This document shows positions 12,001 through 15,000 of a stretch of 64,000 nt of DNA, in pieces. Where the stretch lies: the NCBI RefSeq assembly GCF_003018255.1, contig NZ_CP027441.1, one strand, 5' to 3'. Position 1 is the first letter of the stretch. Every line of letters starts with the position of its first letter. The stretch is from Escherichia coli (GTDB lineage Bacteria; Pseudomonadota; Gammaproteobacteria; Enterobacterales; Enterobacteriaceae). Position numbers: made by a program.

Positions 12001-15000
12001 CAGACCGGTGGCATTTTCATTAATTCATCCGGCATCCCTCGAATCTTCAGAAGTGGAAGAGATATTCCGGGATGAAGGTTTTATACTCGCGCACGGACGC
12101 GAATGCAGCCTGAACGGCAGCGGCAGAAACATGCTGTCACGCATTCTTCATGTGGGGCATTCAGGTTTACCGAAAGCCGAATGGGGCATAGATCACAGCA
12201 ATCACCTGTTACACTGAAATACCGGGACAGCCACAACGGCAGCCACTCTCCGCTGACTTTTTTTCGCAAATTGCGGTTTGCTGATGTGGATGTCCCATTT
12301 TTTATTATCCGTCCTCTCCGGTTGTCATAAAGCGCATTCCGGCGTGAGGCTTCTGTTGTTATCATCCCCTCCTGCAGACATCCCCTTGTCTTCTGATGAC
12401 TGACGATATGCTTCTTCTGACAATTAAAGAAGCGGAAGCTTCACGCCATAATGTTGTTTGACTGACCTGCCACAGGAGGAAAAATGACACTGACGTTACT
12501 TACCGCGTATAACGCACCCTATCTGGCAGCCCTGACTTTTGTTCTGCTTACTGGTATCGCTGAACTTATCGCCCTGCTCTGCGGACACTCCCTCTCTTCA
12601 GCTATGGATACACCTGATTTACCGGAGGGGCTGACAGGAGAGGCGCTGGACTGGCTGAACATCGGACGGATCCCCCTGCTGATCGTCCTCTGTATGCTGG
12701 CAGTTTTTTTTGGTATATCCGGCATTCTCCTGCAGGGTCTTATTATTCATCTGCTGCAGGCTCCTGCCCCGAACATTCTCCTTGCACCACTTTGCCTGCT
12801 GCTGACATGTCCTCTCGTACACCGCACCGGCAGACTGATTGCCCCCTGGTTACCCCGTGATGAAACAACGGCGCTCACCGAGGAGGCATTCATCGGGTGT
12901 ATGGCCACCATCACCGGTTATCACGCAGTGGCGGGTTCCCCCTGTGAAGGTCGCTTCACAGACCGCTTTGGGCAGGTTCATTACCTGTTGCTGGAGCCAG
13001 AGGCCGGGAAAGAATTCAGACGAGGAGACAAAGTGATTATTGTCTGCCGTCTTTCCGGTTCCCGCTGGCTGGGTGAACTGAATCCCTGGCCGGATGTTCT
13101 TTAATCCCGACATATACAGAGGTTCTCACTATGTTTAATCTTCCGGGATGGTTGTTTACCGTTATTGCGCTGGTCCTCACCCTGTTCGTTATCGGGCTGA
13201 TATTTGCCCGCCTGTACCGTCGGGCATCGGCAGAGCAGGCCTTTGTCCGCACAGGTCTGGGAGGCCAAAAAGTGGTAATGAGTGGCGGTGCAATTGTTAT
13301 GCCCATTTTTCACGAAACAATTCCCGTCAACATGAACACCCTGAAGCTGGAAGTCAGTCGTGCAGCGGCTGAAAGTCTCATTACCCGCGACCGCATGCGT
13401 GTTGATGTTGCCGTTGCCTTTTTTCTTCGGGTAAAACCATCAGCCGAAGGAATATCTACTGCAGCCCAGACGCTGGGACAACGCACGCTCACACCTGAAG
13501 ATCTGCGTAGTCTGGTCGAGGATAAATTTGTTGATGCCCTGCGGGCCACGGCGGCCAGAATGAGCATGCAGGATTTACAGGATGCCCGCGAGAACTTTGT
13601 TCAGGGTGTGCAGAACACCGTTGCGGAAGACTTATCCAAAAACGGTCTGGAGCTTGAAAGTGTGTCGCTGACAAGTTTCAACCAGACTGCACGGGAACAT
13701 TTTAATCCTGACAATGCCTTTGATGCTGAAGGCCTGACCCTTCTGACCCAGGAAACAGAACGTCGTCGCCGCGAACGTAACGAAGTTGAGCAGGATGTTG
13801 AAGTGGCCATCAGGGAAAAAAACCGGGATGCACTCTCCCGACGTCTGGAGATTGAACAGCAGGAAGCCTTCATGACTCTGGAGCAACAACAACGGGTAAA
13901 AACCCGTACGGCAGAGCAGAGTGCCAGTATTGCTGCTATTGAAGCTGAACGACGTCGTGAAGCAGAATCCGCGAGAATTCTGGCTGAACGTAAGATAGAG
14001 GAAGCCGAAATCGAACGACAGCAGATAGTGCGTACCCGCCAGGTCGAAGCCGAACGGGAAGTGGCCATACGGGAAATTGAGCAACAGCAGGCAACCGAAA
14101 TCGCCAGCCAGGCCAGAGCCATTGCCGTGGCGGCAAAATCGGAAGAGCAGTCACAGGCAGAAGCCCGGGCAAGTAAAGCACTGGCTGAAGCCGTACAGGC
14201 CCAGCAGGATGTGGAAACCACCCGCCAGACTGCGGAGGCCGACCGTACCAAACAGGTTGCCCTGATTGCTGCTGCTCAGGAAGCTGAAACGAAAGCGGTT
14301 GAACTGACGGTTCGCGCACAGGCTGAAAAAGAAGCAGCCGAACTCCAGGCAGCAGCAATTATTGAACTGGCGGAGGCCACCCGTCAGAAAGGTCTGGCAG
14401 AAGCAGAAGCACAGCGCGCACTGAACGATGCCATTAACGTGCTTTCGGATGAGCAGACCAGCCTCCGCTTCCGTCTTGCCCTGCTGGATGCATTACCTGC
14501 TGTCATAGAGAAGTCCACAGAACCAATGAAATCCATTGACGGTATTAAAATCATTCAGGTGGATGGTCTGAATGGCGGTGTTACCCGCGGTAAAACAGCA
14601 ACAACCGACATAAGTGGCGGAAATCTCGCTGAACAGGCGGTAACCGCCGCTCTGGCTTACCGTACACAGGCTCCGCTCATCGACTCCCTGCTGAAAGAGG
14701 TGGGTTTATCCGGTGAAGGACTTACAGCCCTGACACGTCCACTGGTCATGCCTGCCCCGGAAAAGATTCCGGATGTCAGCGAACCGGTAACCGCTCCGGA
14801 TAACTCAGAACCACAACAGGTTTAATCCCCGTGCCGGAATTTTTCCGGCATCTTTTTCACAAAGAATGCCCTCACGGGATATTCTGGTTTAAAAGAGGAT
14901 TGAAAATGTCCGCAGAAAAATTCAGCGTTGTCATATACACCAATACATGTGAAAAGAAAGTCAGTTATATTCCTGCAACAGAAGATATAAACATCGCTAT

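What the first reader, a model, noticed from the sequence alone, without database searches (positions are those of the whole stretch)
12484..14857. NfeD-like/flotillin-like module between the transfer regulators and the pil operon
A two-gene unit with its own SD and intrinsic terminator encodes an NfeD-like membrane protein followed by a 564-aa SPFH/band-7 protein with a long Glu/Ala/Arg coiled-coil. A membrane-microdomain scaffold is not part of the canonical thin-pilus or T4BSS gene sets as I know them. It could organise the transfer machinery or act in envelope stress or defence.
Basis: partly seen in the sequence, partly recalled or inferred. Interest (0 to 1): 0.55.

Follow-up and report, generated by a model that had tools for sequence, protein, structure and literature searches.

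The report
Plasmid copy of yqiJ–yqiK flotillin operon
The two genes are a real, intact, plasmid-borne and long-diverged copy of the E. coli yqiJ–yqiK (NfeD-like protein plus flotillin) membrane-scaffold operon, attached to the transfer-regulator block of IncB/O/K/Z/Iγ-type plasmids; it is already annotated in hundreds of plasmids, is kept by selection, and is not needed for conjugation.

Summary
ORFs 12484-13104 (206 aa) and 13131-14825 (564 aa) have Shine-Dalgarno sequences and a hairpin plus T-run at 14831-14857. Pfam gives YqiJ_N and YqiJ_OB for the first, and Band_7 and Flot for the second. A confident model of the first has an NfeD-type OB domain.

They are not pilJ/pilK. They are a discrete plasmid lineage of the enterobacterial yqiJ-yqiK operon: 54% and 82% identical to K-12 YqiJ and YqiK, with no closer chromosomal relative found.

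The pair lies after traB-traC, where R64 has traD. It occurs only in non-IncI1 I-complex plasmids: about 256-268 of roughly 535 PLSDB records with this traBC type.

A diverged copy in a mosaic contig shows that the pair travels with traBC rather than pil, is probably co-transcribed with traC, and is under strong purifying selection (dN/dS 0.04-0.11).

It has been lost at least three times independently. One scar type is carried by pMS7163B, which conjugates well on surfaces. No PADLOC defence model matches.

Verdict: a known, already annotated accessory flotillin/NfeD-like module whose role on the plasmid has not been tested. Modest interest.

The parts
10770..11411 (+). traB (NusG-family transfer regulator), context gene at the start of the block the pair travels with
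   Evidence: ORF. Annotated as a NusG-family protein in the 100%-identical record NZ_CP027372.1. 81% identical to the TraB of mosaic contig L025.
11552..12217 (+). traC (transfer regulator), immediately upstream of the pair
   Evidence: PGAP CDS (locus 8253-8918 plus the 3299 offset). The mechanical ORF starts earlier, at 11450. 76% identical to L025 TraC. traB and traC are required for conjugation in pMS7163B TraDIS, Log2FC -5.4 and -5.3.
12218..12483 (+). traC-yqiJ spacer with no canonical terminator and no usable promoter; entirely absent in L025
   Evidence: The promoter/terminator scan finds only a -10-like hexamer that overlaps the ATG, and no + strand terminator. The fold is not significant, z = -1.5. 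In L025 traC runs straight into the yqiJ SD.
12474..12479 (+). Shine-Dalgarno AGGAGG of the yqiJ-like gene
   Evidence: Sequence read directly.
12484..13104 (+). yqiJ-like gene: 206-aa polytopic inner-membrane protein with a C-terminal NfeD-type OB domain
   Evidence: ORF. Pfam YqiJ_N and YqiJ_OB. Three hydrophobic segments. AlphaFold2 model pLDDT 82 with helices 8-32, 65-91 and 97-122 and a beta-barrel at 140-199. Top PDB fold matches are NfeD C-terminal domains 3wwv, 2k14 (YuaF) and 2k5h. 54% identical to K-12 YqiJ.
13118..13122 (+). Shine-Dalgarno AGAGG of the flotillin gene
   Evidence: Sequence read directly.
13131..14825 (+). yqiK-like gene: 564-aa flotillin-family SPFH protein (N-terminal anchor, SPFH domain, ~220-residue E/A/R/Q-rich helix, Flot domain, variable tail)
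   Evidence: ORF. Pfam Band_7 (residues 35-200) and Flot (402-526). Hydrophobic segment 1-30 and composition. 82% identical to K-12 YqiK. dN/dS 0.044 against L025.
14831..14857 (+). intrinsic-terminator-like hairpin plus T-run between yqiK and pilI
   Evidence: Compensatory change in L025. Retained in scar A plasmids, deleted in scar B plasmids.
12527..12536 (+). left copy of the 10-bp microhomology CAGCCCTGAC at which scar A formed (deletion of 12537-14734)
   Evidence: 96 PLSDB records carry this junction, including pMS7163B.
14725..14734 (+). right copy of the 10-bp microhomology for scar A
14906..15148 (+). pilI, first gene of the thin-pilus operon (context, downstream boundary)
   Evidence: PGAP annotation of the identical record. 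SD and ATG visible.

Best explanation
The pair is a plasmid-borne, long-diverged paralogue of the enterobacterial yqiJ-yqiK operon. It forms the tail of the traB-traC regulatory block in the non-IncI1 branch of I-complex plasmids (IncK2/Z and IncIγ/K1 replicon types were seen here), in the slot where R64 has traD. A conserved hairpin closes it off before pilI.

Shown here: domain content, gene order, translation signals, the hairpin, the restricted and polymorphic distribution, linkage to traBC rather than pil, strong purifying selection, and the fact that a plasmid lacking the pair conjugates on surfaces.

Inferred by homology with FloA-NfeD, FloT-YuaF and QmcA-YbbJ: the flotillin is anchored in the inner membrane by its N-terminal helix with the rest in the cytoplasm. 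It oligomerises through its ~220-residue helix and Flot domain into a ring or cage on the cytoplasmic face. The three-helix YqiJ-like protein uses its cytoplasmic OB domain to bind and stabilise that oligomer. The complex confines or stabilises inner-membrane proteins without using ATP.

Inferred from context: it is transcribed with traBC, so it is made when the transfer genes are on. It then buffers the donor's inner membrane against the load of the T4BSS and thin-pilus proteins or against other stress. That would be a conditional fitness benefit and not a step in DNA transfer.
For: Identity: Pfam YqiJ_N/YqiJ_OB and Band_7/Flot; NfeD-type OB fold; 54% and 82% identity to K-12 YqiJ and YqiK in the same order and spacing; PGAP names it 'flotillin family protein' and 'OB-fold-containing/YqiJ family protein'.

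Discrete old lineage: identities fall from 94-100% straight to 82% or less among 5.8 billion proteins. The best chromosomal YqiJ among the species representatives reached by the pattern-based scan of 100,044 genomes is 62%. Chromosomal E. coli and Citrobacter are closer to each other (93% and 72%) than either is to the plasmid pair.

Linkage to traBC: in contig L025, TraB is 81%, TraC 76%, YqiJ 87% and YqiK 94% identical to the window, but PilN is only 40% identical to the window and 95% identical to R64 PilN.

Co-transcription: the window has no terminator or usable promoter between traC and yqiJ, and L025 has no spacer at all.

Selection: dN/dS is 0.11 (yqiJ) and 0.044 (yqiK) at dS 0.6-0.8.

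Accessory status: R64 lacks the pair. About 256-268 of roughly 535 plasmids with this traBC type have it intact. Scar A is in 96 records, scar B in 75, and there are IS66 truncations. pMS7163B carries scar A and conjugates on surfaces (PMC10286972).

Mechanism by homology: FloA-NfeD clamp/holdase (PMC11222466); QmcA-YbbJ cage of 26 heterodimers (Tan et al. 2024, as cited in PMC13086221); YqiJ as the NfeD homologue of the SPFH2 operon (PMC2636767).
Against: No experiment has addressed the plasmid copy. Chromosomal yqiK mutants have weak or no phenotypes, and native YqiK-GFP was undetectable (PMC10434171; PMC2636767), so a strong effect cannot be assumed. Essentially every E. coli already has chromosomal yqiJK (5423 of 5426 genomes), so the benefit of a second copy is unclear. 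Repeated loss in about half of the lineage shows that the benefit is conditional or small. Co-transcription with traBC is inferred from the absence of signals and from one relative, not measured. The flotillin model was too poor (pLDDT 53) to support any oligomer claim, and sequence matches to solved flotillin are weak (E about 0.004). The dN/dS estimate rests on one sequence pair.
Confidence: 0.6

Rival explanations
1. Dedicated organiser of the transfer apparatus. The flotillin/NfeD-like complex scaffolds assembly or positioning of the I-type T4SS and/or the PilN-PilQ thin-pilus machine, so it measurably raises mating efficiency, especially in liquid or in the gut.
For: The pair sits between the transfer regulators and the pil operon, is co-inherited with traBC, has no promoter of its own and is under strong purifying selection. 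Precedents from the literature: the Agrobacterium T4SS and T6SS fractionate with SPFH-marked detergent-resistant membranes, and S. aureus FloA aids T7SS assembly (PMC8656257). pMS7163B, which lacks the pair, had very low liquid mating, about 2e-6, which is anecdotal.
Against: pMS7163B (scar A) conjugates efficiently on surfaces. In one search, 450 of the 535 matching records, fewer than half of them intact, are typed conjugative by MOB-suite. R64 and about 1,400 IncI1-type plasmids have no homologue. TraDIS insertions in the remnant slot enrich among transconjugants, Log2FC +2.58. In the Agrobacterium study the SPFH proteins were used as microdomain markers, and the passages read show no requirement for secretion.
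Confidence: 0.15
2. Plain host-physiology cargo with no connection to transfer. The pair alters host stress tolerance, motility or biofilm whenever the plasmid is present, and its position next to traBC is a historical accident.
For: The chromosomal yqiK mutant swims faster and is reported to affect ampicillin tolerance (Padilla-Vaca 2019, as cited in PMC7824781 and PMC10434171). IncK blaCMY-2 plasmids carrying yqiK reduced biofilm, and the authors proposed yqiK as a candidate (PMC7824781). FloA-NfeD is needed for oxidative-stress survival in S. aureus. Presence is polymorphic, which is typical of cargo.
Against: The pair has kept the same slot and orientation through dS of about 0.7 and across a recombination breakpoint, and it always stays with traBC. 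No mobile-element boundaries flank it. It lacks a recognisable promoter of its own.
Confidence: 0.2
3. Anti-phage or anti-plasmid defence, or an exclusion module, acting at the membrane.
For: Only the general observation that plasmids carry defence genes near transfer regions.
Against: No match to any of the 5,027 PADLOC models for either protein. There is no nuclease, protease, NTPase or other effector domain. The closest relatives are housekeeping chromosomal operons in a conserved glgS-yqiJK context.
Confidence: 0.03
4. Functionless hitch-hiker that is decaying.
For: About half of the lineage has lost it through at least three independent events.
Against: dN/dS is 0.04-0.11 over dS 0.6-0.8. 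The ORFs are intact and full-length in more than 250 plasmids at 98% identity or above. YqiJ and YqiK are more conserved between the window and L025 (87% and 94%) than the essential regulators TraB and TraC (81% and 76%).
Confidence: 0.02

Closest known systems
E. coli chromosomal yqiJ-yqiK operon (SPFH2a flotillin plus its NfeD-like partner)
   Same: Same two Pfam architectures, the same gene order, a 26-nt intergenic gap in both, and similar lengths (206/564 aa against 209/553 aa). YqiK is 82% and YqiJ 54% identical.
   Different: The plasmid pair sits in a traBC-pil context instead of glgS-yqiJK-ibs/hldE. It is a discrete lineage outside the E. coli/Citrobacter/Kluyvera chromosomal group. 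Its C-terminal tail is different and fast-evolving (omega 0.41 for residues 531-564). It is probably expressed with the transfer regulators and not from the weak native promoter.
S. aureus FloA-NfeD and B. subtilis FloT-YuaF (NfeD2) flotillin operons
   Same: A gene for a membrane protein with a cytoplasmic OB domain comes first and a flotillin second. The YqiJ-like model's OB domain superposes on YuaF (2k14) at rmsd 2.5 Å. The mechanism proposed for this family is an ATP-independent clamp that stabilises membrane proteins (PMC11222466).
   Different: Sequence similarity is low: the NCBIfam FloT equivalog scores 83 bits against a cut-off of 700. The host envelope is Gram-negative. The N-terminal domain is YqiJ_N and not the NfeD family profile. 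No experimental data exist for the plasmid proteins.
E. coli QmcA-YbbJ SPFH-NfeD cage (Tan et al. 2024, as cited in PMC13086221)
   Same: An SPFH protein paired with an NfeD-type partner in the E. coli inner membrane, facing the cytoplasm. It gives a structural precedent for a large hetero-oligomeric cage.
   Different: QmcA is stomatin-like and lacks the Flot domain, and the gene order is reversed (qmcA lies upstream of ybbJ; PMC10434171). No structure of a YqiK-type complex turned up in the PDB sequence searches.
R64 traD (the gene occupying the same slot in IncI1 plasmids)
   Same: Same position, directly after traC and before pilI. One paper's introduction lists traABCD together as regulators of transfer gene expression (PMC10286972).
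   Different: No detectable homology between YqiJ-like and R64 TraD (E = 0.38). R64 has one 188-aa ORF there, not a two-gene SPFH module.

Membership tests
Flotillin-type SPFH proteins (YqiK / SPFH2a) | SPFH/Band 7 domain | tested here: met
   Pfam PF01145 Band_7, i-E 6e-19, residues 35-200. The best PDB sequence match of residues 1-210 is human flotillin-1, E = 0.004.
Flotillin-type SPFH proteins (YqiK / SPFH2a) | C-terminal Flotillin domain | tested here: met
   Pfam PF15975 Flot, i-E 1.3e-38, residues 402-526, covering the full model 1-124.
Flotillin-type SPFH proteins (YqiK / SPFH2a) | N-terminal membrane anchor, with the rest of the protein in the cytoplasm | tested here: inconclusive
   There is a single hydrophobic segment at 1-30 followed by RLYRR, and a modelled helix at 6-32. 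The orientation is inferred from the positive-inside rule and from predictions for YqiK cited in PMC10434171. It was not measured.
Flotillin-type SPFH proteins (YqiK / SPFH2a) | Long coiled-coil / E-A-rich helix between the SPFH and Flot domains | tested here: met
   Residues 201-430 are 64% E+A+R+Q. They are modelled as a continuous helix, 200-418, at pLDDT 75-84.
Flotillin-type SPFH proteins (YqiK / SPFH2a) | Homo-oligomeric ring or cage and focal, detergent-resistant membrane localisation | not testable with these tools
   This needs biochemistry or microscopy. The monomer model was too poor for any inference.
FloT equivalog (NCBIfam NF058507) | Score at or above the curated equivalog cut-off | tested here: not met
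   83.1 bits against a cut-off of 700. The protein is related to FloT but is not a FloT equivalog.
YqiJ family / short NfeD-like partners of SPFH proteins | YqiJ_N membrane domain plus YqiJ_OB domain | tested here: met
   PF21001 at 1.8e-15 (residues 10-112) and PF07290 at 2e-14 (136-189). Three hydrophobic segments.
YqiJ family / short NfeD-like partners of SPFH proteins | NfeD-type C-terminal OB-fold beta-barrel | tested here: met
   The model has pLDDT 82, and 82-96 over the barrel. The top three Foldseek PDB hits are NfeD C-terminal domains: 3wwv (target TM 0.76, rmsd 2.7 Å), 2k14 YuaF (0.64, 2.5 Å) and 2k5h. Probability is 1.00, but E-values are marginal at 1.5e-3 to 5e-3.
YqiJ family / short NfeD-like partners of SPFH proteins | Direct match to the Pfam NfeD profile (PF01957) | tested here: not met
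   PF01957 is not among the Pfam matches with E up to 10. 'NfeD-like' therefore rests on fold, operon context and the literature (PMC2636767), not on the NfeD sequence profile.
YqiJ family / short NfeD-like partners of SPFH proteins | Encoded immediately next to, and in the same orientation as, an SPFH gene | tested here: met
   A 26-nt gap on the same strand. The arrangement is the same in K-12, Citrobacter and Kluyvera.
YqiJ family / short NfeD-like partners of SPFH proteins | Physical binding to, and stabilisation of, the flotillin oligomer | not testable with these tools
   Shown for S. aureus NfeD-FloA (PMC11222466). Not tested for these proteins.
   The pair lies before pilI. R64 has two unnamed ORFs after pilI, at the pilJ/pilK positions, and traD before it. 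YqiJ-like against R64 TraD gives E = 0.38. The window's own pilK-like ORF is at 15265-15597.
Core I-complex conjugation genes | Required for conjugative transfer | tested here: not met
   pMS7163B carries the 2,198-bp deletion and transfers on surfaces. Its remnant ORF has TraDIS Log2FC +2.58 (PMC10286972). Liquid mating was not assessed in that study.
Known anti-phage defence systems (PADLOC-DB 2.0) | Match to any defence-system protein model | tested here: not met
   Zero families at E up to 0.01 for either protein.

The most novel reading that the evidence does not exclude
The pair is a TraB/TraC-controlled part of the transfer regulon. It builds a flotillin/NfeD-like microdomain or holdase in the donor inner membrane that either assists assembly of the very large I-type T4SS and thin-pilus machines or protects the donor from the envelope stress they cause, for example secretin-type stress from PilN. 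That would give a measurable gain in liquid or gut mating, or in donor fitness. If so, it would be the first flotillin with a defined client process in a Gram-negative bacterium and a new class of conjugation accessory factor. It would also explain why the pair is selected yet dispensable on agar.
Probability: 0.2. Interest if true: 0.55.

Novelty: already known. Interest (0 to 1): 0.27.

Why it matters
Bacterial flotillins, E. coli YqiK above all, still lack a clear physiological role, and mutants show weak or no phenotypes. This plasmid copy is under strong purifying selection, has no promoter of its own that I could find, and sits at the end of the transfer-regulator block. It also exists in nature as matched intact and cleanly deleted variants within the same plasmid types. 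That amounts to a ready-made natural experiment for asking what a YqiJK-type complex does, and whether conjugative plasmids carry factors that offset the membrane cost of their own transfer machinery. For plasmid epidemiology, the scars are convenient lineage markers within IncK2/Z and IncIγ/K1 plasmids. None of this changes the basic verdict: the genes themselves are ordinary and already annotated.

Tried and rejected
1. pilJ/pilK identity was rejected. R64 has traD before pilI and two unnamed ORFs at the pilJ/pilK positions after it, and YqiJ-like is not homologous to R64 TraD.

2. Defence was rejected for lack of support: no PADLOC match.

3. An RfaH/ops-like site that might let the NusG-like TraB read through the hairpin was not found. 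There were 4 matches in 64 kb against 3.4 expected, none near the locus, so I dropped the idea.

4. An own promoter was not found. The only sigma-70-like match, at 12458-12485, has its -10 hexamer over the ATG. That is a weak consensus scan, so absence is not proof.

5. A terminator between traC and yqiJ was not found: none in the scan, and the spacer fold gives z = -1.5.

6. A recent chromosomal donor was not found. The best hits are Citrobacter YqiJ at 62% (a pattern-based scan that is biased towards close relatives) and 82% for YqiK among 5.8 billion proteins.

7. The flotillin structure attempt failed. The AlphaFold2 model from a 4-sequence alignment had pLDDT 53, so I ran no fold search on it. 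PDB sequence searches with the full protein or its profile found nothing useful. The SPFH part alone weakly found flotillin-1.

8. The literature search found no paper pairing 'flotillin' with any I-complex Inc term.

9. Most fetched loci did not appear in the Python sandbox, so I pasted sequences in by hand for the junction and dN/dS calculations.

10. My first attempts to fetch R64 and pMS7163B by GenBank accession failed. Both were then found as NC_005014 and NZ_CP026855.1.
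Full report
WHAT IS THERE. The window is 100% identical, over 12300-14900, to the 175-kb plasmid NZ_CP027372.1 of E. coli 2015C-3905 (replicons IncFIB and IncI-gamma/K1, MPF_I, typed conjugative). On the + strand the order is as follows:
- traB (NusG family), 10770-11411
- traC, 11552-12217
- a 266-bp spacer
- ORF 12484-13104 (206 aa)
- a 26-nt gap
- ORF 13131-14825 (564 aa)
- a hairpin with a T-run, 14831-14857
- pilI, 14906-15148, followed by pilL, pilM, pilN and pilO.

AGGAGG lies 4 nt before the first ATG and AGAGG 8 nt before the second. The hairpin has 9 bp, 5 of them G-C. It folds at -13.9 kcal/mol with z = -2.4.

WHAT THE PROTEINS ARE. The 206-aa protein matches Pfam YqiJ_N (1.8e-15) and YqiJ_OB (2e-14). 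It has three hydrophobic segments. An AlphaFold2 model built from a 20-sequence alignment (pLDDT 82) shows three long helices followed by a beta-barrel at 140-199. The three best matches in the PDB are all C-terminal OB domains of NfeD proteins: P. horikoshii 1510-C (3wwv), B. subtilis YuaF (2k14), which is the partner of flotillin FloT, and MTH693 (2k5h). They align with rmsd 2.5-2.7 Å and target TM-scores of 0.64-0.76, although the E-values are marginal. There is no direct hit to the Pfam NfeD profile, so 'NfeD-like' is right at the level of fold and operon role, and the sequence family is YqiJ.

The 564-aa protein matches Band_7/SPFH (6e-19, residues 35-200) and the Flotillin domain (1.3e-38, residues 402-526). 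It has one N-terminal hydrophobic helix followed by RLYRR. Residues 201-430 are 64% E+A+R+Q and are modelled as a single long helix. It is not a FloT equivalog, scoring 83 bits against a cut-off of 700. Neither protein matches any PADLOC defence model.

RELATION TO THE CHROMOSOMAL OPERON. The pair is a paralogue of yqiJ-yqiK. The K-12 proteins are 54% (YqiJ) and 82% (YqiK) identical, in the same order and with the same spacing. Chromosomal yqiK was found in 5423 of 5426 complete E. coli genomes at about 75% DNA identity. The plasmid version is present intact in 227 of those genomes, about 4%.

The unequal divergence of the two genes is normal for this operon. E. coli and Citrobacter differ by 7% in YqiK and 28% in YqiJ. 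The plasmid pair lies outside that chromosomal group, at 82% and 54-62%. Among 5.8 billion proteins, identities fall from 94-100% (the plasmid lineage) straight to 82% or less. A pattern-based scan of one genome per species found no chromosomal YqiJ above 62%. So this is an old, discrete plasmid lineage and not a recent capture.

WHERE IT OCCURS, AND WITH WHAT.
- In PLSDB, traB-traC of this type (90% identity or more) occurs in about 535-550 plasmids. About 1,400 IncI1-type plasmids have a traB that is only about 68% identical.
- The flotillin is intact in 256-268 plasmids, all at 98% identity or more. No IncI1-type homologue appeared.
- R64 has traD (188 aa) between traC and pilI. TraD is unrelated to YqiJ-like.
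- The intact carriers I sampled include IncK2/Z plasmids (psh13D178-1, pH2332-107) and IncI-gamma/K1 plasmids (R805a and the window's plasmid).
- A metagenomic contig, L025, carries a more diverged copy in the same order: traB, traC, yqiJ, yqiK, pilI. Against the window, TraB is 81%, TraC 76%, YqiJ 87% and YqiK 94% identical. PilN is only 40% identical to the window's PilN but 95% identical to R64's.

The pair therefore stays with the traBC block across a recombination breakpoint and is not tied to a particular pil operon. In L025 the traC-yqiJ spacer is missing and traC runs directly into the yqiJ Shine-Dalgarno sequence. The window's spacer has no terminator and no usable promoter. Together these point to co-transcription with traBC, which is an inference and not a measurement. 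The hairpin after yqiK is conserved in L025 through a compensatory A-T to G-C change and a G-U to G-C change.

SELECTION AND LOSS. Between the window and L025, dN/dS is 0.11 for yqiJ and 0.044 for yqiK, at dS 0.6-0.8. Only the last 34 codons of yqiK are relaxed, at 0.41 (Nei-Gojobori method, one sequence pair). The pair is better conserved than the essential regulators next to it. Even so, it has been lost repeatedly:
- Scar A is a 2,198-bp in-frame deletion (12537-14734) between two copies of CAGCCCTGAC. It leaves a 47-aa remnant ORF and is found in 96 records.
- Scar B consists of two deletions (12260-14342 and 14524-14851) that leave an internal yqiK fragment. It is found in 75 records.
- IS66-associated truncation after codon 130 of yqiJ occurs in STEC-type plasmids. 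I estimate about 70 records.

pMS7163B (NZ_CP026855.1), the plasmid used for the I-complex TraDIS screen, carries scar A. That screen therefore never tested these genes, but it shows that a backbone without them transfers efficiently on surfaces. Insertions in the remnant ORF were enriched among transconjugants (Log2FC +2.58), as were insertions in pilI and pilK (PMC10286972). Liquid mating could not be screened in that study.

HOW IT MOST LIKELY WORKS. The following is by homology and is not shown for these proteins. The flotillin is anchored by its N-terminal helix and faces the cytoplasm. It oligomerises through its long helix and Flot domain. The YqiJ-like protein's cytoplasmic OB domain binds and stabilises the oligomer. 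The complex confines or stabilises inner-membrane proteins without ATP.

This is the model proposed for S. aureus FloA-NfeD (PMC11222466). It is consistent with the QmcA-YbbJ cage (Tan et al. 2024, as cited in PMC13086221) and with the assignment of YqiJ as the NfeD partner in SPFH2 operons (PMC2636767).

From context, I infer that the pair is made together with TraB and TraC. It would then give a conditional benefit to the plasmid-bearing cell, most plausibly by buffering the inner membrane when the T4SS and thin-pilus proteins are produced. It is not a step in DNA transfer itself. The main rivals are a true assembly scaffold for the transfer machines, which is weakened by the conjugative scar plasmids, and plain host-physiology cargo affecting motility, biofilm or stress tolerance, as suggested without a test in PMC7824781. 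Defence and neutral decay are disfavoured.

WHAT IS ALREADY KNOWN. PGAP labels these genes 'flotillin family protein' and 'OB-fold-containing / YqiJ family protein' in hundreds of plasmid records. They are drawn as yqiJ and yqiK on IncB/O/K/Z plasmid maps (PMC8549364), and yqiK has been proposed as a biofilm-modulating candidate on IncK plasmids (PMC7824781). I found no paper that studies them on plasmids. Chromosomal YqiK itself has weak phenotypes and very low native expression (PMC10434171; PMC2636767).

VERDICT. The finding is real and correctly described, but it is a known and already annotated module. What this analysis adds:
- its restriction to the non-IncI1 I-complex branch, in the traD slot
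- its linkage to traBC
- probable co-transcription with traBC
- strong purifying selection
- at least three independent losses, including one in the reference TraDIS plasmid.

I score interest at 0.27. The most novel reading that the evidence does not exclude, a transfer-regulon flotillin that supports or protects the donor membrane, has a probability of about 0.2.

Noticed in passing
window 15265-15597 (+): The pilK-like ORF (111 aa in R805a, pMS7163B and psh13D178-1) is 94% identical here but has TAA at codon 9 (15289-15291, 'MRTITTRE*'). It is a pseudogene in this plasmid, which is why no ORF of 50 aa or more appears on the + strand between pilI and pilL.
   Followed up: partly
pMS7163B 13620-14537 (equivalent to the window's yqiJK slot through pilK); PMC10286972 Table A: TraDIS insertions in the remnant ORF '160' (Log2FC +2.58), pilI (+2.95), pilK (+3.20) and pilO (+2.39) are enriched among transconjugants. 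Disrupting this stretch, or reading out of the transposon into it, therefore seems to raise surface transfer. The authors did not class these genes as repressors.
   Followed up: partly
L025 (ENA ERZ27268043 k141_149405), whole locus: This contig is a mosaic I-complex backbone. The traB-traC-yqiJ-yqiK block is of the B/O/K/Z type (76-94% identical to the window). The pil operon is of the R64 type (PilN 95% identical to R64, 40% to the window). The recombination breakpoint lies at or just after pilI.
   Followed up: partly
window ~3300-7214 (-), from the annotation of NZ_CP027372.1: A contact-dependent inhibition system lies next to the replicon: cdiA (a very large toxin gene that runs beyond the annotated stretch) and a cdiB/ShlB-family transporter.
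   Followed up: no
window 10081-10230 (-) and 54801-54958 (-): Rfam finds the repZ regulatory pseudoknot (PK-repZ, 156 bits), which confirms an I-complex replicon. It also finds a sok antitoxin RNA (120 bits), which indicates a hok/sok-type post-segregational killing locus.
   Followed up: no
window 11450-12217 (+): The mechanical traC ORF starts at 11450 (255 aa), but PGAP annotates a 221-aa product starting at 11552, and the alignment with L025 TraC begins at residue 35 of the long form. The shorter start is probably the real one.
   Followed up: partly
L003 (NZ_CP035766.1, O145 plasmid pRM12522-C8) 5185-8168: In a group of STEC IncFIB/IncI-gamma/K1 plasmids, yqiJ is cut after about 130 codons next to an IS66-family element, and the flotillin, pil and tra regions are gone. 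These plasmids are typed as mobilizable only.
   Followed up: partly
window 12259-12265 (+): A run of seven T sits 42 nt after the traC stop codon with no good upstream hairpin. The left end of the scar B deletion falls exactly at the start of this run.
   Followed up: no
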